Below, piece by piece: positions 11,922 through 43,164 of a stretch of DNA of 64,000 nucleotides. Location of the stretch: contig JAJRYD010000029.1 in assembly GCA_024275955.1 (NCBI GenBank), positions 4,500-68,499 on the forward strand, read 5' to 3'. The first letter of the stretch is position 1. Every line of letters starts with the position of its first letter. Position numbers and translations under genes: made by a program. The notes under the pieces were generated by a model. The model saw only the letters and a list, made by a program, of their open reading frames with translations, searched no databases and had not been told where the DNA came from. This DNA is from Nitrospirota bacterium. Lineage in GTDB: Bacteria > Nitrospinota_A > UBA7883 > JACRGQ01.

Positions 11922-13091
11922 CTAAAGAAACTCTACGGTAACGATAGCGATATCGTCCTGTTCATCATTTTGATTCCAAAACGATTCCACATCGGCGACT
12001 ATTTCATCAGTCATTTCCTGCGCCGTTTTTTGCCGTTCTGCTTTTACAAGTTTCGCAAGACGCTCAATGCCGTATTGGTTTCCTTCACTGTTGGAGGCTT
12101 CGTAAACGCCGTCGCTAAAAAGCACCAGCTTATCGCCTTTTTGGAAATTTACGGTTTCTTCTTCAAAAAATGCGTTGCCGTTATCAAATATTCCGATAAG
12201 CGAACCGGTACTCTTTAGAACTCCGGGAGCGTTATCGCGTTTCCCGACAAGGTATGGCGGAGGGTGGCCGGCGGTTACATATGTAAGCTCGTTTTTAGAA
12301 AAGTCCGCAATGCCGAAAAAGCAGGTAACAAAATGTGTCTCCGGTGTCATCTTTGTAAGTTTTGCGTTAAGGCGTAAGGCAAGTTCCCGTGGTGTCGGGT
12401 AGTCTAAGCTTTCGCTCTGTATAAGCGCCTTGAGTAGCGCCATAATGAGCGCCGCCGCCGGGCCGTGGCCTGCTACATCGGCCAGCACGAAAGCGGTTCT
12501 ATCTTTTCCATATTCAAAGACATCATACATATCCCCGCCGATATTAGTAGCGGCTTTGTAATGGGCGGCGATACCGCAGTTTTTAAAATTGCTAAGATGT
12601 TCCTCGGAAGGAAGCATATCTCTTTGGACTATTTCGGCCACCCGCAGGTCCATCTGCATCTGATCCTGCTGTTTCTTTACTTTTTTCAGCAGTTTCATAT
12701 TGTCGTCATGCAGATGTTTTAACCGTAGCATTGATTTAACGCGGGCAATTAGTTCGTTTTCGTCAAACGGTTTTGTCAGGTATTCCAGCGCTCCTTCTTC
12801 CAGCCCGCGAATAACATCGCCTGATTCCCTTCTCTTTGCCGTTATAAGAATTATAGGAATATGGGCGGAACGCTCCATATTGCGGATACTGCGGCTCGCT
12901 TCAAACCCGTCCATTTTCGGCATCATTATATCCATCAATATAAGGTCTATATCGTTATTCTTGACAGCCTCTACAGCCTCTAGGCCGTTAGTGGCAGGAA
13001 CGGTTACGAAGCTGTGGTTTTTGAGGATTACCTCAAGGAGGAAAATATTATCTAAATCGTCGTCTACTATTAGAATGTTGGAATTTTTCAT
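11922..13091 (-). CDS. Response regulator with receiver domain fused to a PP2C/SpoIIE-type Ser/Thr phosphatase (RsbU-like)
   Basis: The REC domain shows ILIVDDD...LILMDIMMPKMDGFE...LTKPF. The PP2C domain shows GDMYDVF..LADVAGHGPAAALIMA. Confidence 0.8.
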   Translation of the reverse strand: MKNSNILIVDDDLDNIFLLEVILKNHSFVTVPATNGLEAVEAVKNNDIDLILMDIMMPKMDGFEASRSIRNMERSAHIPIILITAKRRESGDVIRGLEEGALEYLTKPFDENELIARVKSMLRLKHLHDDNMKLLKKVKKQQDQMQMDLRVAEIVQRDMLPSEEHLSNFKNCGIAAHYKAATNIGGDMYDVFEYGKDRTAFVLADVAGHGPAAALIMALLKALIQSESLDYPTPRELALRLNAKLTKMTPETHFVTCFFGIADFSKNELTYVTAGHPPPYLVGKRDNAPGVLKSTGSLIGIFDNGNAFFEEETVNFQKGDKLVLFSDGVYEASNSEGNQYGIERLAKLVKAERQKTAQEMTDEIVADVESFWNQNDEQDDIAIVTVEFL

Positions 13092-17736: not shown

Positions 17737-18464
17737 CGGAAACTAACGGGAAAGATAAAAGAGAAGGACACCGCAAAAGGCTTAGAGAAAAGTTTTTAGA
17801 GCATGGCCTTGAAAAGTTTACCGACGAGGAGATAGTCGAGCTGTTGCTGACTCTTGCTACGCCGAGGAAAGACTGCAAGCAGGCGGCAAGGGAGGCATTA
17901 AAAACTTTTGGAACGCTCCGCAACGTGCTGGAGGCCGACCTCGATTCGTTGACGGAGATAAAAGATATAGGCCCTTCCAACGCTTTTGGCATTAAGTTTA
18001 TCCATCAGGTTACGAAAAAGTTTCTGCGCGACAGAATGATAGAGAAAAGGGCGTTTCATTCTTCCGATGACCTTCTTGACTATCTTAACCACTCTATGAG
18101 GTCGCTTAAGAGAGAGGTTTTTCAGATTATATATCTTGACGCGGTTGACAGGATAATTGACGAAGAAATCATAGCAGTAGGCACGGCGACGGAGGTGCCG
18201 GTCAGCCCCCAGCAGATAGTCGAGCGGGCGGTAAAGCGCGGCGCGGCGAATATTATGATAGCGCACAACCATCCGGGCGGCGAGGCGGAACCTTCGGAGG
18301 ACGATAAGGCTATGACGCGCGAAACGGTTTTTGTCTGCGGCATGATGAAGCTAAAGCTAAGGGAGCATGCGATTGTCGCTCCGCGCGGCCACTTTAGTTT
18401 TTCAAAGGAAGGTCTTATCGCCGAGTATGAGCATCAGCTCCGCAAGGTGCAAAAGAAGATTTAA
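17733..18464 (+). CDS. radC: RadC-like JAB/MPN domain protein (UPF0758)
   Basis: It has a helix-hairpin-helix N-terminus and a JAMM motif (HNHPGGEAEPSEDD). It overlaps the upstream gene by 4 nt. Confidence 0.8.
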   Translation: MTETNGKDKREGHRKRLREKFLEHGLEKFTDEEIVELLLTLATPRKDCKQAAREALKTFGTLRNVLEADLDSLTEIKDIGPSNAFGIKFIHQVTKKFLRDRMIEKRAFHSSDDLLDYLNHSMRSLKREVFQIIYLDAVDRIIDEEIIAVGTATEVPVSPQQIVERAVKRGAANIMIAHNHPGGEAEPSEDDKAMTRETVFVCGMMKLKLREHAIVAPRGHFSFSKEGLIAEYEHQLRKVQKKI

Positions 18465-19351
18465 CAAGTAGAGCTATCAGTTGTCTGCCTGATTTTTTCA
18501 GGTAGGGCAGGTAGGTCTTTTTCAGTCAGCAGGGCTAATCTAGCTTTTGGGGCGAAGGCATATCTTCCGACCCTTCTGATTGATAGTTTTATAAAGTCTT
18601 CCATCCATTTTTCTTCTCCAACCCCGAAGTCTCTTTTTGGATTTGCTTTTCTGGAGGTTTCTTCGTTTCCGACGACTGATGTGAGATACCCAAAGTCATT
18701 TAAAATGGTGAGGCTTATTTTAAATTTTCTGCTTGCTTTGCATCGGTTCTGTCGGTGGTGATCTTCCGCAATATCTTTGTTCTCGCAACTTTTTTTGTCG
18801 CATTTGCAGATATCACTGGCTTCTTTTTCCAAAATGGTTAGGCAGGTATAGCCGATATCGGTTAGGCGGGCACTCCCTTTTTTATAAGTTTCGAGTAGTT
18901 TAAGCATTATTCTTACTGTCGAAGAGAATTGGAATTTTTCAGGTGGTGAAGGGTAAGCTCCTGCTTGAATATTCCGCGACATTGGGCATTCTGCTGAGAC
19001 CGGCCGCCTCGTATACTGATGGGCTAAACTGCCATCGGCTCTCTCTTTTAGAATGCCGGCATTTTTATATTTAAATCTTGTCCCATAAAGATTATGTTTC
19101 AAAATGATTTCAGCTTCCCACGCTAGTACAAAATCTTTAACATGCGACTTGGCTTCCTCGATATCTTTAAAATATTTTTTGTCTTTGAATTGTATTGTCA
19201 ATTTTCCGTCGGTATGAGCTTCGTCTGTTTGTTCTAGGATGGCTGTAAAGTCTTCGTATTCCTTTATGATAGGTTCTGGATTGTCGAAAAGCATTGGGGA
19301 TGGTGTTAGCAGGCTGTACGTAAGCTTCTCGACATAAATAGTTTCAGCCAT
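18461..19351 (-). CDS. Hypothetical protein with a Cys cluster, encoded immediately downstream of hicB-hicA
   Basis: The 296-aa ORF has no recognisable domain. A Cys cluster (CKCDKKSCENK...C) is present. Its start codon abuts the hicA stop with no gap. It looks AT-richer than the flanks. Confidence 0.45.
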   Translation of the reverse strand: MAETIYVEKLTYSLLTPSPMLFDNPEPIIKEYEDFTAILEQTDEAHTDGKLTIQFKDKKYFKDIEEAKSHVKDFVLAWEAEIILKHNLYGTRFKYKNAGILKERADGSLAHQYTRRPVSAECPMSRNIQAGAYPSPPEKFQFSSTVRIMLKLLETYKKGSARLTDIGYTCLTILEKEASDICKCDKKSCENKDIAEDHHRQNRCKASRKFKISLTILNDFGYLTSVVGNEETSRKANPKRDFGVGEEKWMEDFIKLSIRRVGRYAFAPKARLALLTEKDLPALPEKIRQTTDSSTC

Positions 19352-38133: not shown

Positions 38134-39057
38134 TCACGGTTTTTCCATGTTTCTTAGCCGTATAAGGAGCTTTGCGAAATCTTCCGGCTGTTCGGCCGTA
38201 AATGTCATCTCTTTTTTTGTTTTGGGATGTATGAGCCTTAGTTCCGCCGCATGGAGGGCGGGGCGGGATATAAGTTTTGTTCTGCGTTTTCCATATACCA
38301 TGTCGCCTAGTATCGGGTGGTTTATCGACGCGAGATGCACCCTTATCTGGTGCGTTCTGCCTGTCCGCAGTTTTACCTTTAGGAACGTAGCTTCTTCGTA
38401 GGTTTCAACCGTCTCAAAGTCCGTTACCGCCTCTTTAGGGGCATTGGTATTTACCGACATTTTTTTTCTATGCTGTGGGTGCCTGCCTATCGGCTTTTCT
38501 ATTCTGCCTTTTTCTTCCCGCATAACTCCGCGTACGACAGCTAGGTAGGCGCGTCCCATAGTATGTTTTGCAAGCTGTTCGCTAAGCGAGAGATGCGCCG
38601 TATCGTTTTTTGCTATCGCTATAAGGCCGGATGTCTCTTTGTCGAGACGATGCACGATGCCGGGGCGCAGTTCGCCGCCTATCCCGGAAAGGTTTTTACA
38701 ATGGTGCAAAAGAGCGTTTACCAGAGTGCCGGTCAAGTTTCCTTTGGCAGGATGAACCACCATCCCGACAGCCTTGTTGACGATTACGATGTCGCCATCT
38801 TCGTAAACGATATCAAGCGGTATATCTTCAGCTATCGTATCTACTGTCTGTGGAATTTCTGGAGCTATTTCGAATTTATCGCCGGCTTTGGTATGGCGGC
38901 TCGGCAGTACCGCCTTGCCGTTCATTAATATCTTTTTTTCCTTTATAAGGCGAGTAACTTTTACGCGTGTAAATTCCGAAAGCTCTCCCGCTAGGTAGCG
39001 GTCTACCCGTATATCTTCGTCCCCCTCCCGCACTACCACAGTTATCGTTTCTGCCAT
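38134..39057 (-). CDS. rluD: 23S rRNA pseudouridine synthase, RluA family (RluD-like) with an S4 domain
   Basis: I trimmed the start from the 367-aa ORF to the internal ATG at 39055-39057 (MAETITVV...). The protein has an S4 RNA-binding N-terminus and the catalytic motif HRLDKETSGLI. Confidence 0.85.
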   Translation of the reverse strand: MAETITVVVREGDEDIRVDRYLAGELSEFTRVKVTRLIKEKKILMNGKAVLPSRHTKAGDKFEIAPEIPQTVDTIAEDIPLDIVYEDGDIVIVNKAVGMVVHPAKGNLTGTLVNALLHHCKNLSGIGGELRPGIVHRLDKETSGLIAIAKNDTAHLSLSEQLAKHTMGRAYLAVVRGVMREEKGRIEKPIGRHPQHRKKMSVNTNAPKEAVTDFETVETYEEATFLKVKLRTGRTHQIRVHLASINHPILGDMVYGKRRTKLISRPALHAAELRLIHPKTKKEMTFTAEQPEDFAKLLIRLRNMEKP

Positions 39058-39538
39058 GGCGCTATAATACCGCTTATCGGAGGTTTGCTGATAAAGATTG
39101 TTTGCGGGGAGAGCCGAAAGCTCAATATATGATTTGAATTTGAAGGGTGGTGGCGATACCCAAAAGGTGATGATAGAGAGCATAAAAACAGGTATCACCA
39201 AAACAGTTGGGGCGATTAAACGAGAAAGAAGCATCAACAGTAACTAAGAACAGTCTTTGGCGGTAACGGTATGGAAAACCTGTTGGTGAATTTTCAAGGC
39301 TGTTGTTGTGAATTATTATTTGCAAGACGGGTGACGCTTTGGGGGGGAATAAAATTTTCTAATAAATAATGGTTTTAGGTTTTACGGTTTGTTTTTGCAG
39401 GTGCCGGTTTCTCTGCTTCTAAAGCTGTTATAAGGTGACGGTTTGAGCGTAAAAAACAGCTCTATAAATCTTTTTGATATCGGCTGAGCGGTTCTTTATT
39501 TTTAACAAAGTATTATTTTAGGTTTGGTTCTGGTATAG

Positions 39539-39564
39539 TTGCCCCTTAATTGCAGGGGGGGCAA
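39539..39564 (+). promoter_or_regulatory. Hairpin (TTGCCCC / 12-nt loop / GGGGCAA) that engulfs the SD and the first base of the start codon of the DUF59 gene
   Basis: The perfect 7-bp stem spans 39539-39545 and 39558-39564. The G-rich SD-like GGGGGGG lies in the loop and stem. The ATG is at 39564-39566. Confidence 0.3.
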
Positions 39565-39860
39565 TGCATAAGGAAGATATTTTAGATAGCCTTAAATCGG
39601 TTATCGACCCAGAACTCGGCATAAACATAGTCGATTTGGGTTTGATCTATAATGTTAATGTCAGCGGTAACGACGTTTTTGTTACGATGATGATGACTTC
39701 ACAGGCTTGCCCGATGGGAGACCTCCTTAAAATCGAAGTGGTTGATGCCATCAGGAAGATTTTTCCGTCCGCGGGAAAGGTAGAAGCAGTTCTTACGGTA
39801 GATCCGCCGTGGACAAACGAAATGATGTCGGGCGACGCAAGGAAACAGCTTGGACTCTAA
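39564..39860 (+). CDS. DUF59 / MIP18-family Fe-S cluster assembly protein (SufT/PaaD-like)
   Basis: It carries the motif LKSVIDPELGINIVDLGLIY...MTSQACPMG. Confidence 0.8.
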   Translation: MHKEDILDSLKSVIDPELGINIVDLGLIYNVNVSGNDVFVTMMMTSQACPMGDLLKIEVVDAIRKIFPSAGKVEAVLTVDPPWTNEMMSGDARKQLGL

Positions 39861-39868
39861 AGGTTTCG

Positions 39869-40954
39869 ATGTTCCTTTATAAAGTAAGGTTTCCTCTGCT
39901 TGCTGTCGGTCTGCTCTCGCTTATCGGCGCGCTCTACTCCGGCCTTATAAGGCTCGGTTTCGATCTGCCGTTTATACATTTCGATTTACCGGAGGCGCAT
40001 GGGCCTCTTATGATTGCCGCCTTTCTCGGTACCGTGATAGGGCTGGAAAGGGCTGTAGCGCTAGAGACACCGTGGGGTTATCTATCTCCGCTTCTTGCCG
40101 GTGTTGGCGGTCTGCTGGCATTGCTTGGTGTTTCTAACGGTGCGCCGCAGTTACTTATCTTTCTTTCGAGCATAGTTCTTATCTTGATGTATGCCGTAGT
40201 TCTAAAGCGGCAGTTAGAGTTTTTTAATGTCATCATGGCGCTTGGCGCTGTCTCTCTTTTTATCGGAAACCTTCTCTGGCTATCCGGCGAGCCTATATAC
40301 AACTTTGTGCTTTGGTGGGTAGCGTTTCTTGTGCTGACGATAGCGGGAGAGAGGCTGGAATTAAGCCGTGTGCTTAGCCATAGCAAAAATATTCTCTCTT
40401 TATTTTCTGTTGCTGTTGCTGTTTTTCTTTTAGGTATTGCGTTAGAGCGGTTCTTGCCCGGCATCGGTGTGCGGATAGCAGGCGTTGGTATGATTTTCAT
40501 TTCGCTCTGGCTACTCACCTTCGGTGTTGCAAGAGTTACGGTAAGGCAGAAAGGCCTTACACGGTATGTGGCTGTCTGTCTTTTGGCCGGCTACTTTTGG
40601 CTGATAATCGGCGGAGCTATAGCGGTAGTTGCCGGCGAGCTGGAGCCGGGCTTTGTGTACGACGCATTCTTGCACGCACTCTTTTTAGGCTTTACATTTA
40701 CCATGATTTTCGGGCATGCGCCGATAATCTTTCCGGCGGTATTGCGGATTCCTGTTCCGTATAGAGCCGGCTTTTATTCGCACCTTCTGCTTTTGCATGT
40801 TTCGCTTTCGCTTAGAGTAGGCGGCGATATCTTTGACCTTGACGAACTGCATGTATGGGGAGGGGTCGGCAACGTGGCGGCTCTTATACTATTTCTCGTC
40901 AACACAGTTTCATCGGTTGTAAGAGGTCTTCTGGCAAAACCTGCTAAGGGGTAA
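39869..40954 (+). CDS. Polytopic integral membrane protein of unknown function
   Basis: About ten hydrophobic helices are present. I placed the start at the ATG 8 nt after the DUF59 stop, because the longer ORF overlaps DUF59. Confidence 0.5.
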   Translation: MFLYKVRFPLLAVGLLSLIGALYSGLIRLGFDLPFIHFDLPEAHGPLMIAAFLGTVIGLERAVALETPWGYLSPLLAGVGGLLALLGVSNGAPQLLIFLSSIVLILMYAVVLKRQLEFFNVIMALGAVSLFIGNLLWLSGEPIYNFVLWWVAFLVLTIAGERLELSRVLSHSKNILSLFSVAVAVFLLGIALERFLPGIGVRIAGVGMIFISLWLLTFGVARVTVRQKGLTRYVAVCLLAGYFWLIIGGAIAVVAGELEPGFVYDAFLHALFLGFTFTMIFGHAPIIFPAVLRIPVPYRAGFYSHLLLLHVSLSLRVGGDIFDLDELHVWGGVGNVAALILFLVNTVSSVVRGLLAKPAKG

Positions 40955-41077
40955 AGGGGGGGCTGGTCTGCTTTGTTCGTTCATCCAGCTTCAAGCGGTA
41001 AGCTGGATTTTCTCTCATATTTGCTGATAAACTTACCGCGTGGCTGTTAAGGAAATAGTATAAGGGAATAAAGAAGT

Positions 41078-42331
41078 ATGAGCCAGAATTTACGACCGAT
41101 AATCGAGCGCTATAAAAAGGATGGGGAGGCTGTTTATAACACTTGGTTTGTAAATAACGACGAGCGTCTCAAAGCGTTTCGTTCTATTAGGAGAGGCGTG
41201 CAGGATGTTATACGGGATATAAAAGAGAAAAATTTTGGGAATGACTTTAAAGGCTCTTCACTGGAGTTTGTCTTAAACTGTATTACAGAGCAAAAACAGG
41301 TTTTCATCGGCGCTTCGCATCCGTTTTACTGGAAACCGAAATTACGCATTCCTGATATTTATGAAAATGAGGATAACAAAGCCGCATTTGGACAATTTCT
41401 GGAAAACTGCCATAATTCCATCAGTGAAGAACAAATCTTAAAGGAAATAATTTTACTTAATCAGCGTAAGATTAAAGGTCTTGGTCCGGCCGTGGCCAAC
41501 ATCTTGTATTTTCTGCACCCAACGATAATTCCGCCTTTCAACACAGCTATAGTGAACGGCTTCAATCGCCTTTTTAAAGAAAAAATAAGACTGGGGTCAT
41601 GGGATGAATATCGGAAAATGCGCGCTGTTATTATGCATACAAATGCCGCCTTCAAGAATGATTTATCGAGCGATCTGGGCGCAATTTCCGGGTTTTTGTT
41701 TGATATCGGTGTTGGAAAAATTCATATCGGTGATGAACATACGCTTTCAGAAAAAGAAAAAACCAAAATTGAAAAGATGGTTAAAAACCGTCACCGCAAG
41801 GTAGTGGCGGAAAATGAAGAGGAAGATATCCATACAGAGATGCAGTACCATCTCTTAAAGATTGGCAATTCACTTGGCTATGATGTTATTAGCGCCTCAA
41901 ACGATAGGGCAAAATGCCATAAGGGTAAAAGTTTTTCTTTTATAAGCCTACCAAGCTTTCCTAAATTAGATGTTGGTGTTGATAAAGATACATTCAAAAC
42001 TATAGCTTTGATTGACGCTGTCTGGTTTAAAAAAGGCTCGAACAACATTGTATGTGCGTTTGAAGTGGAAAAGAGTACTTCCATCTATTCAGGAATTTTA
42101 AGATTAAAAGATTTATTCTATACATTTCCTAATAACCGACCGACGCTTTACTTGGTTATTCCCGACAATAGGGAAAAAGAGGTGATGCTACAATTAAACC
42201 GGCCGGCAATCAAAAATGGCGAAGTTGAAGTACGCTATATATTATTTTCCGATTTGAAACTGCATTGTGATTCAATATGCAAACTTGGGGAAAATAAAGA
42301 GATTATGAAAAAAATAGCCAAGGGTCTGTAG
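41078..42331 (+). CDS. Hypothetical protein with a C-terminal PD-(D/E)xK nuclease-like motif; candidate stand-alone defence or restriction-type nuclease
   Basis: A D...ExK core is present (TIALIDAVWF...12 aa...CAFEVEKSTSI). The N-terminal part has an HhH-like IKGLGPAVANILYFLHP. The gene is monocistronic, between a membrane-protein gene and lgt. Its composition is visibly AT-richer than the neighbours. Confidence 0.4.
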   Translation: MSQNLRPIIERYKKDGEAVYNTWFVNNDERLKAFRSIRRGVQDVIRDIKEKNFGNDFKGSSLEFVLNCITEQKQVFIGASHPFYWKPKLRIPDIYENEDNKAAFGQFLENCHNSISEEQILKEIILLNQRKIKGLGPAVANILYFLHPTIIPPFNTAIVNGFNRLFKEKIRLGSWDEYRKMRAVIMHTNAAFKNDLSSDLGAISGFLFDIGVGKIHIGDEHTLSEKEKTKIEKMVKNRHRKVVAENEEEDIHTEMQYHLLKIGNSLGYDVISASNDRAKCHKGKSFSFISLPSFPKLDVGVDKDTFKTIALIDAVWFKKGSNNIVCAFEVEKSTSIYSGILRLKDLFYTFPNNRPTLYLVIPDNREKEVMLQLNRPAIKNGEVEVRYILFSDLKLHCDSICKLGENKEIMKKIAKGL

Positions 42332-42387
42332 GGAAGACAACATAAGGAAGGAGTATCCCTCGACATCGGTCTCCGTTTTTATAAAAC

Positions 42388-43164
42388 CTACCCCTCTGCT
42401 TCCTCATCATGCTTGCTCTTTGCCAAAAGTTTGGCATAAAGGGCGGAGGCTACGGCGAGGGCAACTATGGCAACAGCTTGCGAAGTGCTAAATGGGCCGA
42501 TAAAACCGCGAGGGTCTCCCCGATATATTTCTATAGTAAACCTGCCGATTGCGTAGAGAATCATCCATAGCAAAAATATCTGCCCTTTAAATTGTCTGAA
42601 CCGTCTTACAGATATCAAAATAAGAAAGATTACCAATTCGTTTAGCGCCATGTAGAGCTGGGTTGGGTGTAGCGGTACGTTTAGCGGCGCGAGCGACGCG
42701 GGGTGCGTAAAGATTACGCTCCATGCCACATCGCTGACATCGCCGTAACAGCATCCGGCGCCGAAACAGCCGAGCCTCCCAAACATATGCCCAAGTGCTA
42801 GGGCAGGGGCTATAATGTCTGCCATCTTCCATGCTTCTATATTATGTTTTCTTACAAACCAGATGCTTGTGACTACCGAGCCGATGAACCCGCCGTAAAA
42901 GACAAGCCCGCCCTCCCATACCATAAAAACTTTTAGCGGGTTATGGATGTAGCTTGGCCATTCTATAAGCACATACATAATGCGCGCGCCTACAAGCGCC
43001 GAGAGTACTATATAGAAAGCTAGGTCTAGTGCTTTTTCTGGGTCTTCGCCTTCGGTTTTTGCTCTGCTGGCCATAAGGAAAGAGGCGACGAGAAAGCCTG
43101 TGGCGGCCATAAGGCCGTATGAATAAAGTTTTAGCGGGCCAATCTCGAATATTACAGGTAACAT
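42388..43164 (-). CDS. lgt: Prolipoprotein diacylglyceryl transferase
   Basis: The N-terminus reads LPVIFEIGPLKLYSYGLM and the Lgt signature G..GN..N.E..G is present (GRLGCFGAGCCYG). Confidence 0.9.
   Translation of the reverse strand: MLPVIFEIGPLKLYSYGLMAATGFLVASFLMASRAKTEGEDPEKALDLAFYIVLSALVGARIMYVLIEWPSYIHNPLKVFMVWEGGLVFYGGFIGSVVTSIWFVRKHNIEAWKMADIIAPALALGHMFGRLGCFGAGCCYGDVSDVAWSVIFTHPASLAPLNVPLHPTQLYMALNELVIFLILISVRRFRQFKGQIFLLWMILYAIGRFTIEIYRGDPRGFIGPFSTSQAVAIVALAVASALYAKLLAKSKHDEEAEG

What the first reader, a model, noticed from the sequence alone, without database searches (positions are those of the whole stretch)
41078..42331. Monocistronic, AT-richer gene encoding a candidate PD-(D/E)xK nuclease of unknown family
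The C-terminal region has a textbook restriction-endonuclease-like core: a beta strand ending in D (LIDAVWF), followed about 12 residues later by CAFEVEKS (E-x-K). The N-terminal roughly 250 aa contain an HhH-like motif but no known domain. The gene is inserted between housekeeping genes (a membrane protein and lgt). Its composition looks different from the neighbours, consistent with horizontal acquisition. It could be a single-gene anti-phage or defence nuclease (Shedu/DUF4263-like or an orphan restriction enzyme), or a remnant of a restriction-modification system.
Basis: partly seen in the sequence, partly recalled or inferred. Interest (0 to 1): 0.6.

Follow-up and report, generated by a model that had tools for sequence, protein, structure and literature searches.

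The report
Solitary CopL-family restriction-like nuclease gene
The gene is a real, horizontally acquired, stand-alone copy of a very widespread and strongly conserved restriction-enzyme-like nuclease family, known in Cupriavidus as the uncharacterised copper-resistance gene copL, which never has a methyltransferase partner and usually sits in heavy-metal resistance islands.

Summary
The ORF 41078-42331 (+, 417 aa) is real, intact and the most AT-rich gene in the window. Its C-terminal third is a restriction-endonuclease-type domain (PADLOC REase_II E=2.4e-8; close homologues carry Pfam PF27126 NmeDI_C). The N-terminal 215 aa form an all-helical domain with no significant match to any known fold.

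It is not of "unknown family". More than 6,800 homologues exist, 65-87% identical across many phyla (dN/dS about 0.04-0.08). The protein is 44% identical over its full length to C. metallidurans pMOL30 Rmet_6120 (CopL), whose function is unknown.

The family never has an adjacent DNA methyltransferase. It is absent from 50,697 phage records and present on 184 plasmids. It lies in copper or heavy-metal resistance clusters in 9 of 9 plasmids inspected and 46 of 83 chromosomal loci.

In this window the copy is solitary, in a variable slot between lgt and rluD that is empty in relatives. No metal-resistance genes were detected in the window by motif search.

The observation and the HGT inference are confirmed. 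The Shedu and R-M-remnant readings are rejected. Single-gene defence is possible but fits less well than a metal-stress-linked DNA nuclease. It is a new member of a known but uncharacterised family.

The parts
41078..42331 (+). Complete CopL-family gene (417 aa plus stop)
   Evidence: ORF. More than 6,800 homologues, the top 120 full-length at 69-87% identity. 44% identity over 100% of its length to pMOL30 Rmet_6120/CopL, E=7e-110. dN/dS is 0.083 against the closest homologue, L001.
41078..41722 (+). N-terminal all-helical domain (aa 1-215); fold unassigned
   Evidence: AF2 models have pLDDT 81-82, and the domain alone has pTM 0.82. No significant PDB fold hit: best is MutY at E=0.58, and OGG1 TM is about 0.34. 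No Pfam, NCBIfam or PDB sequence hit.
41303..41365 (+). Most conserved N-domain motif, FxGAxHxFxWKPKLRIPDIYE (aa 76-96); a basic loop predicted with low confidence
   Evidence: Nearly invariant even at 28-45% identity. pLDDT is below 50 for aa 74-89. That it is a DNA- or partner-binding loop ordered on binding is my inference.
41468..41521 (+). HhH-like motif IKGLGPAVANILYFLHP (aa 131-148), followed by invariant N155-T156
   Evidence: G134, Y144, F145, P148 and N155 are invariant family-wide. hhalign places it on the HhH of E. coli Nth, but with probability only 0.15%. This is a motif-level resemblance only.
41750..41872 (+). Long connecting helix (aa 225-265) between the two domains
   Evidence: AF2 secondary structure shows helix 225-265. 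Sequence here is the most variable part of the family.
41873..42328 (+). C-terminal NmeDI_C / PD-(D/E)xK-type nuclease domain (aa 266-417)
   Evidence: PADLOC REase_II E=2.4e-8 on aa 252-393. PF27126 NmeDI_C on close homologues. Alpha/beta pattern in the AF2 model. The weak Foldseek hits are all REases or PD-(D/E)xK proteins: EcoT38I E=0.017, YaeQ, BsaWI, FokI, BspD6I.
42014..42016 (+). Codon of D313 (LIDAVWF), predicted metal-binding catalytic Asp
   Evidence: Invariant in all alignments, including 28%-identical members.
42062..42073 (+). Codons of E329-V-E331-K332 (AFEVEKS), predicted catalytic strand
   Evidence: E331 is invariant and E329 nearly invariant. K332 is His in the pMOL30, Deinococcus and Sphingobium clade.
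41063..41077 (+). Upstream 15 nt (AGGGAATAAAGAAGT) with an RBS-like purine run; the 5' limit of DNA homology to other family members
   Evidence: blastn homology with L001 and all other loci spans only window 41063-42333.
40983..41008 (+). Terminator-like hairpin ending the upstream membrane-protein gene; it isolates the nuclease gene transcriptionally
   Evidence: 9-bp stem followed by a T-run; sequence.
39238..42387 (.). Variable slot between rluD (38134-39237, -) and lgt (42388-43164, -). It holds a DUF59 gene, a 381-aa membrane-protein gene and the nuclease gene.
   Evidence: In relatives the slot is empty (L085, L086), or holds PolyA_pol (L089), or a methyltransferase plus 2 PQQ proteins (L087/88).

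Best explanation
The gene encodes an intact, horizontally acquired, stand-alone member of the CopL family. The prototype is Rmet_6120 in the cop cluster of C. metallidurans pMOL30, annotated in databases as "type II restriction endonuclease/NmeDIP".

Shown:
- It is a two-domain protein. An unassigned all-helical N-terminal domain carries an HhH-like motif and a basic WKPKLRIPD loop.
- A long helix joins this to an NmeDI_C-type PD-(D/E)xK nuclease domain with conserved D313, E329 and E331.
- The family has no methyltransferase partner and is under very strong purifying selection.
- It spreads between phyla as a bare ORF.
- It is predominantly embedded in copper and heavy-metal resistance clusters.

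Inferred mechanism:
- It acts as a divalent-cation-dependent DNA endonuclease.
- The cleavage module resembles that of R.NmeDI, which cuts at a distance on both sides of its site and is active as a tetramer (PMC2095814). That module is non-specific and is targeted by the N-terminal domain.
- The target would be a DNA feature that does not need self-protection by methylation, such as a lesion, a structure or a foreign modification.
- I judge its physiological role most likely to be linked to metal (copper) stress, for example processing metal-induced DNA damage or another DNA transaction that benefits cells in metal-rich habitats.
- It works as a self-contained single gene, which is why solitary copies like this one persist.
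For: Family membership:
- tblastn gives 44% identity, 100% coverage, E=7e-110 to pMOL30 180704-181969.
- That locus is copL/Rmet_6120, by the TSS coordinates in PMC9045368 and PMC7563307.

Nuclease domain:
- PADLOC REase_II E=2.4e-8.
- PF27126 NmeDI_C on close homologues.
- Conserved D313/E329/E331.
- Foldseek hits are exclusively REase or PD-(D/E)xK folds for that part.

No methyltransferase:
- None in the window by motif search.
- No DNA methyltransferase family recurs among 121 neighbours in 35 loci.
- None in the 9 annotated plasmid loci.

Metal association:
- 9 of 9 plasmid contexts, in Beta- and Alphaproteobacteria, Bacillota, Deinococcota, Bacteroidota and Cyanobacteriota.
- 46 of 83 chromosomal loci (37 of 41 Bacteroidota-like, 9 of 42 others).
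- Neighbours include a P1B-ATPase, CusBA/CzcA, CopCD, multicopper oxidase, DUF305, a PpoB2 copper chaperone and tyrosinase.
- pMOL30 copL is divergent from copOFGJ and was up-regulated under a metal mix (PMC11647585).

Selection:
- Synonymous sites are saturated while dN is about 0.2.
- dN/dS is 0.04-0.08 where measurable.

Horizontal acquisition:
- Lowest G+C in the window.
- Gene G+C is below flank G+C in 91% of 79 loci, by up to 0.26. The pMOL30-type clade matches its island, so AT-richness is not intrinsic to the family.
- The slot is empty in relatives.
- Homology ends at the ORF edges.

Other:
- Absent from 50,697 phage records.
Against: - No biochemical or genetic function is known for any CopL. 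It was not induced by acute Cu exposure in one study, it has a Cu-induced antisense RNA, and it was not detected in proteomes (PMC7563307, PMC11647595).
- No universally conserved metal-binding Cys/His motif exists. The CxCC patch of pMOL30 CopL is clade-specific.
- This window has no metal-resistance genes by motif search. 33 of 42 non-Bacteroidota chromosomal copies also lack recognisable metal neighbours.
- The N-terminal domain's resemblance to HhH lesion readers is not statistically supported.
- Co-location with metal genes could reflect shared carriage on mobile islands rather than shared function.
- The nuclease module's characterised relative, R.NmeDI, is a restriction enzyme.
Confidence: 0.45

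Rival explanations
1. It is a single-gene, methyltransferase-independent defence nuclease (type IV-like, or otherwise triggered by foreign DNA). The N-terminal domain would read a modification or feature of invading DNA, and the NmeDI_C module would cleave it. The gene would ride as cargo on the same mobile islands and plasmids that carry metal-resistance genes.
For: - The nuclease module is shared with the bona fide REase R.NmeDI (PADLOC REase_II; PMC2095814).
- It is also shared with a distant relative that fuses it to an EVE modified-base reader (P0267).
- The gene is solitary, patchily distributed, AT-rich and located in a variable slot.
- 85 of the 184 plasmids carrying it are conjugative.
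- A few neighbours match defence models: PDC-S01, HEC-01, DpdF, AriA, IetA.
- An Mrr_cat nuclease lies directly downstream on a Hymenobacter plasmid.
- A methyltransferase-less NmeDIP-like gene was noted in Caulobacter CB2 (PMC11945714).
Against: - There is no hit to any named single-gene defence system in PADLOC beyond the generic REase_II model.
- Conservation is 65-87% identity across phyla with dN/dS of 0.04-0.08 in both domains. That is atypical for defence genes, which usually diversify; this generalisation is from my own knowledge.
- It is absent from all 50,697 phage and prophage-type records.
- Neighbours are specifically metal-resistance genes, in islands of quite different composition across six or more phyla. 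They are not defence islands, integrases or antibiotic-resistance cargo.
Confidence: 0.3
2. It is an orphan type II restriction enzyme, or a decaying remnant of an R-M system whose methyltransferase was lost.
For: - Database names call it "type II restriction endonuclease/NmeDIP".
- It shares its C-terminal domain with R.NmeDI.
Against: - R.NmeDI's gene overlaps its C5-methyltransferase gene (PMC2095814). Here no methyltransferase motif is found in 64 kb, and none recurs next to any homologue.
- Only the catalytic module matches the NmeDI-type profile (positions 178-320 of 351). The recognition part differs.
- An unprotected sequence-specific REase would be lethal (established knowledge).
- The gene is intact and under strong purifying selection, with no sign of decay.
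Confidence: 0.05
3. The nuclease fold is repurposed. The protein would be a DNA-binding regulator, or another non-catalytic factor, for neighbouring metal genes. It is often transcribed divergently from them, as metal regulators are.
For: - It is divergent from copOFGJ in pMOL30 (PMC11647585).
- It is divergent from a P-type ATPase in Komagataeibacter, from a four-helix-bundle copper-binding protein in Deinococcus, from DUF305 in Azospirillum, and from a PpoB2 copper chaperone in Leptolyngbya.
Against: - The catalytic-type acidic residues D313, E329 and E331 are invariant or nearly invariant across the whole family. A pure DNA binder would not need them.
- Solitary copies such as this one have no cognate target operon nearby.
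- Immediate neighbours vary widely, even within Chitinophagaceae islands.
Confidence: 0.1

Closest known systems
CopL (Rmet_6120) of the Cupriavidus metallidurans CH34 pMOL30 cop cluster
   Same: - Full-length homologue: 44% identity, 100% coverage, E=7e-110.
- Same two-domain layout and same length (417 against 421 aa).
- Same conserved N-domain motifs and the same D313/E329/E331 core.
- Both are of unknown function.
   Different: - pMOL30 CopL sits inside the cop cluster, between copO and copQ. The window copy is solitary among housekeeping genes, and no metal genes were detected in the window by motif search.
- pMOL30 CopL has His instead of K332, and a CxCC patch where the window protein has NCHNS.
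- Its G+C matches its island (0.60). The window copy is compositionally foreign.
R.NmeDI (Neisseria meningitidis type II REase; RCCGGY, cuts 12/7 on both sides; PMC2095814) and Pfam PF27126 NmeDI_C
   Same: The C-terminal catalytic module is homologous. The PADLOC REase_II profile matches at positions 178-320 of 351, E=2.4e-8. PF27126 is annotated on close homologues.
   Different: - R.NmeDI is 351 aa, and its gene overlaps that of a C5 methyltransferase.
- Here the N-terminal 250 aa do not match the NmeDI-type profile.
- There is no methyltransferase in the window, nor recurrently in the family.
Type IV (modification-dependent) restriction enzymes built as reader domain plus nuclease, such as EVE/SRA-nuclease fusions
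   Same: - The architecture is a putative N-terminal targeting domain plus a C-terminal PD-(D/E)xK cleavage domain.
- The gene is solitary and has no methyltransferase.
- A distant relative carries EVE plus the same nuclease module.
   Different: - The N-terminal domain is not a recognised modified-base reader.
- Conservation is far higher, and the genomic context (metal islands) is different.
HhH-GPD DNA glycosylases (EndoIII, MutY, OGG1)
   Same: - There is a local HhH-like motif, IKGLGPAVANILYF.
- Weak Foldseek hits to MutY and OGG appear for the helical domain.
   Different: - No statistical support: hhalign probability 0.15%, Foldseek E of 0.58 or worse, TM of 0.34 or less.
- In the tentative alignment, the catalytic Asp position is occupied by the invariant Asn155. 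If the domain is related at all, it would be a non-catalytic reader (inference).

Membership tests
NmeDI_C / PD-(D/E)xK restriction-endonuclease-like nuclease domain | Significant profile match of the C-terminal domain to an NmeDI-type REase model | tested here: met
   PADLOC PDLC03534 REase_II matches at E=2.4e-8, aa 252-393 against profile positions 178-320 of 351. PF27126 NmeDI_C is precomputed for all 120 closest homologues. The local Pfam copy lacks that model.
NmeDI_C / PD-(D/E)xK restriction-endonuclease-like nuclease domain | Conserved acidic/basic catalytic motif D...(D/E)xK on adjacent beta strands | tested here: met
   D313 and E331 are invariant and E329 nearly invariant across the family. 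The register is E-V-E-K (BamHI-like ExE followed by K or H), not a strict ExK. The catalytic geometry was not inspected.
NmeDI_C / PD-(D/E)xK restriction-endonuclease-like nuclease domain | Alpha/beta restriction-endonuclease-like core fold | tested here: inconclusive
CopL family (pMOL30 Rmet_6120) | Full-length sequence homology to Rmet_6120 | tested here: met
   tblastn gives 44.2% identity over query 1-417, E=7e-110. The hit is identified as copL by coordinates in PMC9045368 and PMC7563307. The alignment is A5.
CopL family (pMOL30 Rmet_6120) | Location within a copper or heavy-metal resistance cluster | tested here: not met
   No P1B-ATPase, HMA or DUF2933 signatures were found in the 64-kb window by motif search and tblastn. 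Pfam was run on the immediate neighbours, which are a DUF59 protein, an unassigned membrane protein and Lgt. Context is a family tendency (46 of 83 chromosomal loci and 9 of 9 plasmids), not a sequence criterion.
CopL family (pMOL30 Rmet_6120) | "Cys-rich" patch (CxCC near aa 110), as described for pMOL30 CopL | tested here: not met
   The window protein has NCHNS. The CxCC patch is confined to the Cupriavidus/Deinococcus-type clade.
Type II restriction-modification system (R.NmeDI-like) | Cognate DNA methyltransferase gene adjacent to or overlapping the REase gene | tested here: not met
   No C5 (PCQ) or N6/N4 (DPPY) motif occurs in ORFs of 150 aa or more in the window. No DNA methyltransferase family recurs among 121 neighbours. 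None is present in the annotated plasmid loci.
Type II restriction-modification system (R.NmeDI-like) | Recognition (N-terminal) part homologous to R.NmeDI | tested here: not met
   The REase_II profile aligns only through its positions 178-320. The N-terminal 230 aa give no Pfam, PADLOC or PDB hit.
Shedu (DUF4263) | Match to DUF4263 or a PADLOC Shedu model | tested here: not met
   No such hit appears at E up to 10 in Pfam or PADLOC.
Type IV modification-dependent restriction enzyme | Stand-alone nuclease without a methyltransferase | tested here: met
Type IV modification-dependent restriction enzyme | Recognised modified-base reader domain (SRA, EVE, YTH, ASCH, etc.) | tested here: not met
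   The N-terminal domain matches no such family. Only a distant relative, P0267, carries EVE.
Type IV modification-dependent restriction enzyme | Cleavage dependent on modified DNA; protection against phage | not testable with these tools
   This requires biochemistry and phage assays.
HhH-GPD DNA glycosylase superfamily | Profile or fold similarity to HhH-GPD domains, with a catalytic Asp after the HhH | tested here: not met
Foldseek's best hit is MutY at E=0.58. The putative Asp position is the invariant Asn155.

The most novel reading that the evidence does not exclude
CopL-family proteins may be an unrecognised, DNA-directed arm of copper and heavy-metal resistance. They would be a self-sufficient endonuclease, built from an HhH-like reader plus an NmeDI/FokI-type cleavage module. 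It would recognise and process metal-induced DNA damage, or metal-bound DNA structures. That would explain three things: why it is conserved at 65-87% identity across phyla, why it is embedded in otherwise unrelated metal-resistance islands, and why it is retained as a solitary gene by bacteria from metal-rich habitats such as this one.
Probability: 0.2. Interest if true: 0.75.

Novelty: new member of a known kind. Interest (0 to 1): 0.5.

Why it matters
The gene itself is one more member of a very large family, so it is not new in kind. The family, however, is a real puzzle. It is a restriction-enzyme-like nuclease that:
- never has a methyltransferase;
- evolves as slowly as a housekeeping gene;
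- moves between phyla as a bare ORF;
- is built into copper and heavy-metal resistance islands, from Cupriavidus pMOL30 (copL) to Listeria and Enterococcus plasmids and Chitinophagaceae chromosomes.

The papers found in the searches run here call CopL only a "cys-rich cytosolic protein" of unknown function, and none mentions its nuclease fold, whereas sequence databases call it a "type II restriction endonuclease". Connecting the two makes a concrete, testable question: what does a DNA nuclease do for metal resistance, or is it a defence gene hitch-hiking on metal islands? This matters for understanding clinically and food-relevant copper-resistance plasmids, and for annotation, since these proteins are not R-M enzymes.

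Tried and rejected
Searches that gave nothing useful:
- Pfam, NCBIfam, PHROGs and PDB-sequence searches with the whole protein, with each half, and with a family profile gave only sub-threshold noise: DUF6926, DUF5741, ribosomal protein L1, a designed scaffold.
- The HhH-glycosylase hypothesis for the N-domain was tested three ways. Foldseek on the full model and on a separate N-domain model, and hhalign against E. coli Nth, were all non-significant. I keep it only as a motif resemblance.
- Motif search for methyltransferases in the window found none.

Ideas tested and dropped:
- Insertion scars. No flanking direct or inverted repeats of note and no tRNA, and no conserved flanks shared with homologues. 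I could not define a mobile element.
- A conserved CopO/DUF2933 partner. Seen in pMOL30 and in Listeria and Enterococcus, but a regex/tblastn scan found none near the 83 chromosomal copies or in the window. The regex may be too strict.
- Functional meaning of adjacency to lgt. A plasmid lgt paralogue lies near the Listeria and Enterococcus copies, but only 1 of 83 chromosomal loci has lgt nearby. I treat it as coincidence.
- The upstream 381-aa membrane protein as a partner. It never recurs beside homologues.
- A homing-endonuclease or selfish-ORF reading. Insertion sites are unrelated intergenic contexts, and the gene is under strong purifying selection.
- AT-richness as an intrinsic family property. 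The pMOL30-type clade matches its hosts at G+C 0.56-0.70.

Look-ups that failed:
- The source record of the window could not be retrieved. Exact look-ups of the nuclease and of Lgt found no placed gene.
Full report
**1. The observation**

The ORF 41078-42331 (+) exists as described, with an ATG start and 417 codons. A terminator-like hairpin at 40983-41008 follows the upstream gene, and the downstream gene lgt is convergent. A monocistronic unit is therefore plausible.

The gene's G+C is 0.380 and its GC3 is 0.388. That is the lowest G+C of about 58 ORFs in a window averaging 0.46, and the flanking genes are at 0.49.

**2. What the protein is**

The local Pfam, NCBIfam and PDB-sequence searches gave nothing significant. 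PADLOC's type II REase model PDLC03534 matched aa 252-393 at E=2.4e-8, aligned to profile positions 178-320 of 351.

The homologue search returned more than 6,800 hits. The top 120 are all full-length proteins of about 415 aa, 69-87% identical, from Nitrospinota, Nitrospirota, several proteobacterial classes and other groups. All carry the precomputed Pfam PF27126, which look-up of encoding contigs names NmeDI_C. Some sources label them "type II restriction enzyme/NmeDIP".

The exhaustive search of 50%-identity representatives found 1,614 hits at E of 1e-3 or better, but only 117 at E of 1e-30 or better. The core family is therefore tight.

AlphaFold2 gave a mean pLDDT of 81.5. The model has three parts:
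- an all-helical N-terminal domain, aa 1-215;
- a long helix, aa 225-265;
- an alpha/beta C-terminal domain, aa 266-417.

Foldseek against the PDB gave no significant hit. The best matches for the C-terminal part are all restriction-type nucleases: EcoT38I at E=0.017, then YaeQ, BsaWI, FokI and BspD6I. HhH glycosylases (MutY, OGG) appear weakly for the helical part.

A separate model of the N-domain alone (pLDDT 82, pTM 0.82) again found nothing significant. The best hit was MutY at E=0.58, and the best TM was about 0.34, to OGG1.

The probability was only 0.15%. The HhH-like motif is therefore real as a pattern and very conserved, but homology to glycosylases is not established. If the tentative alignment were right, the catalytic Asp would be replaced by the invariant Asn155, making the domain a non-catalytic reader. 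That is inference only.

**3. The catalytic motif**

I aligned the window protein with members as divergent as 28-45% identity: pMOL30, Enterococcus, Listeria, Deinococcus and 50%-cluster representatives. D313 and E331 are invariant and E329 is nearly invariant. K332 is His in the Cupriavidus/Deinococcus/Sphingobium clade, which reads AFEVEH.

The motif is therefore D...E-V-E-(K/H), not a strict E-x-K. From my own knowledge this resembles the D...ExE variant of BamHI. Conservation of the acidic residues argues for retained catalysis.

The most conserved N-domain element is FxGAxHxFxWKPKLRIPDIYE (aa 76-96). It is a basic loop that AlphaFold predicts with low confidence.

**4. Horizontal acquisition**

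The window's Lgt has relatives at 64% identity or lower, and the named ones are Nitrospinota. In their contigs the backbone ThyX - NTP_transferase - ADH - Lgt - [slot] - RluD - CBS/PAS/GGDEF is conserved. The slot content varies:
- empty in L085 and L086, where lgt and rluD are adjacent;
- PolyA_pol in L089;
- a methyltransferase and two PQQ proteins in L087/88.

In the window the slot holds a DUF59 gene, a 381-aa membrane-protein gene and the nuclease gene.

The closest homologue, L001 (87% aa identity), sits in an unrelated context between BipA and pirin. DNA homology between the window and every homologous locus is confined to 41063-42333, which is the ORF plus 15 nt upstream. There are no flanking repeats and no tRNA.

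Across 79 loci the gene stays at roughly 0.32-0.44 G+C while host flanks range from 0.34 to 0.62. It is lower than its flanks in 91% of loci, by up to 0.26. The divergent pMOL30-type clade matches its islands at 0.56-0.70, so AT-richness is a transfer signature and not a family property.

Synonymous sites are saturated between phyla while dN is about 0.2. dN/dS is 0.083 against L001, and the median is 0.043 for the ten unsaturated pairs. The gene is intact and strongly constrained.

**5. No methyltransferase and no defence island**

No C5 or N6/N4 methyltransferase motif occurs in any ORF of 150 aa or more in the 64-kb window.

I scanned 121 genes lying within two positions of the homologue in 35 non-Bacteroidota loci. 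They matched 139 Pfam families, and none occurred in more than four proteins. No DNA methyltransferase, integrase or transposase family recurred.

The same set matched PADLOC only sporadically: PDC-S01 in two proteins, and HEC-01, DpdF, AriA and IetA in one each.

R.NmeDI, by contrast, is 351 aa and its gene overlaps that of its C5 methyltransferase (PMC2095814). Only its catalytic module is shared with this protein.

A distant relative, P0267, fuses an EVE domain to the same module. NmeDI_C therefore behaves as a portable cleavage domain.

**6. The unexpected context: heavy-metal resistance**

Clustering the neighbours of 83 chromosomal homologues showed that the commonest neighbours are:
- CusB-type and HMBD proteins;
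- P1B-ATPases;
- CzcA/CusA RND pumps;
- HMA proteins;
- DUF305 proteins;
- AraC and ECF regulators.

Recognisable metal genes lie within 8 kb in 37 of 41 Bacteroidota-like loci and 9 of 42 others. The others include Pseudomonas, Colwellia, Leptolyngbya and Nitrospirae. The gene's position within the islands varies.

tblastn against 72,556 plasmids found 184 carriers, 85 of them conjugative. By organism the largest groups were Enterococcus 65, Sphingobium 15, Sphingomonas 10, Listeria 10, Hymenobacter 9 and Cupriavidus 9. None of 50,697 phage records had a match.

All nine plasmid loci I inspected place the gene in copper or metal clusters:

| Plasmid | Context |
|---|---|
| C. metallidurans pMOL30 | copSR-copABCD-I-J-G-F-O-X-Q-H-E |
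| E. faecium | DUF2933, HMA, merR |
| L. monocytogenes | DUF2933 x2, lgt, CopY, multicopper oxidase, DUF1541 |
| Deinococcus | P-type ATPase, HMA, CsoR-type regulator, copper-binding four-helix bundle |
| Sphingobium | MerR, ATPase, CopCD, multicopper oxidase, CopB |
| Komagataeibacter | divergent P-type ATPase |
| Hymenobacter | ATPase, cupredoxin, DUF305, DUF4396 |
| Leptolyngbya | MerR, PpoB2 copper chaperone |
| Azospirillum | DUF305, RcnR/CsoR-type regulator, DmeF |

**7. Identity with CopL**

The pMOL30 homologue is at 180704-181969 on the minus strand. It is RMET_RS30570, also ABF12979.1, 421 aa. It is 44% identical over the full length, E=7e-110.

It is copL/Rmet_6120. PMC9045368 lists the copL TSS at 181,983, 14 bp upstream of Rmet_6120. 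PMC7563307 places an antisense TSS "in copL" at 181,548.

The literature says the following about copL:
- It is a "cys-rich cytosolic protein" and was one of only two cop1 genes (with copE) not induced by acute Cu exposure. It has a Cu-induced antisense transcript (PMC7563307).
- It is divergent from copOFGJ and was up-regulated under a metal mix (PMC11647585).
- It was not detected in the proteome (PMC11647595).

No function is assigned, and the papers found do not mention the nuclease fold. Databases name the same protein "type II restriction endonuclease". The "Cys-rich" CxCC patch is clade-specific and absent from the window protein.

**8. Interpretation**

These points are robust, with confidence around 0.9:
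- The gene is an intact, horizontally acquired, solitary member of the CopL/NmeDI_C nuclease family.
- It is not an orphan of unknown family.
- It is not Shedu.
- It is not an R-M remnant.

Function is inferred. Four observations favour a role connected to metal stress over generic anti-phage defence:
- The gene is repeatedly included in compositionally unrelated metal-resistance islands across six or more phyla.
- pMOL30 copL lies in a metal-responsive cluster.
- The family is absent from phages.
- Its sequence constraint is housekeeping-like.

Three observations favour, or at least permit, a methyltransferase-independent defence nuclease:
- The fold is restriction-enzyme-like.
- An EVE-fused relative exists.
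- Many copies, including this one, are solitary and sit in variable regions.

I commit to this model. The protein is a divalent-cation-dependent DNA endonuclease. Its non-specific NmeDI-type cleavage domain is directed by the N-terminal helical domain to a DNA feature that needs no self-protection. Its most likely benefit is under metal stress. My confidence in this is about 0.45. Type IV-like defence is the main rival at about 0.3.

In this window there is no local evidence for either role beyond the gene itself. No metal-resistance genes were detected by motif search, and defence genes were not looked for in the window.

**9. Verdict**

The gene is a new member of a known but functionally uncharacterised family. 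Interest is moderate. The individual gene is ordinary for its family, but the family poses a sharp and testable question.

Noticed in passing
L048 and L062 (Lacibacter sp. Ana54, CP051137.1); L050 and L064 (OZ245715.1): Some Chitinophagaceae chromosomes carry two CopL-family copies about 40 kb apart. Each copy sits in its own heavy-metal efflux cluster with different immediate neighbours.
   Followed up: partly
L096:7297-8493 (Hymenobacter sp. 5317J-9 plasmid NZ_CP095051.1): A 398-aa Mrr_cat-domain restriction endonuclease (Pfam E=3e-9) lies directly downstream of the CopL homologue. That makes two methyltransferase-less nucleases in tandem at the edge of a copper cluster.
   Followed up: partly
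L092:10242-11045 and L091 around 12137-12785 (Listeria and Enterococcus plasmids): The Gram-positive copper-resistance cluster that carries the CopL homologue also carries a plasmid-borne lgt paralogue, about 35% identical to the window's Lgt. In the window the CopL gene happens to abut the chromosomal lgt. Only 1 of 83 chromosomal loci (L060) shows this adjacency, so it is probably coincidence.
   Followed up: yes
L086:1177-2736: A relative of the window's host has two tandem lgt genes (256 and 257 aa) where the window has one.
   Followed up: no
window 39809-40954 (+): The 381-aa polytopic membrane protein upstream of the nuclease has no Pfam hit and never recurs beside CopL homologues. Its GTG-start ORF overlaps the end of the DUF59 (FeS_assembly_P) gene at 39564-39860, so the true start may lie further downstream.
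   Followed up: partly
window 18461-19351 (-): A second compositionally deviant ORF (296 aa, G+C 0.409, GC3 0.380, the lowest GC3 in the window) has no Pfam hit. It is a possible further foreign gene.
   Followed up: partly
L083:8001-8690 (Alphaproteobacteria MAG JAADIJ010000003.1): This CopL homologue contains an in-frame stop codon in its N-terminal region. It may be a pseudogene or an assembly error.
   Followed up: no
L039:6014-6934 and related loci; L097:5017-5661: Copper-enzyme and chaperone genes lie immediately upstream of CopL homologues: a tyrosinase (E=8.6e-33) in Chitinophagales, and a PpoB2 copper chaperone (E=1.5e-36) in Leptolyngbya.
   Followed up: partly
pMOL30 (NC_007971.2), nt 181,548, within copL (from the literature): PMC7563307 reports a copper-induced antisense transcript of roughly 500-700 nt inside copL, while copL mRNA itself was not induced by acute Cu. 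This suggests CopL levels are actively held down under copper shock.
   Followed up: no
H20: Shewanella sp. ANA-3 plasmid NC_008573.1, 1-885: This 70%-identical homologue is split across the origin of the circular plasmid record, with two places reported. It appears only partly in the search and has no annotated feature.
   Followed up: no
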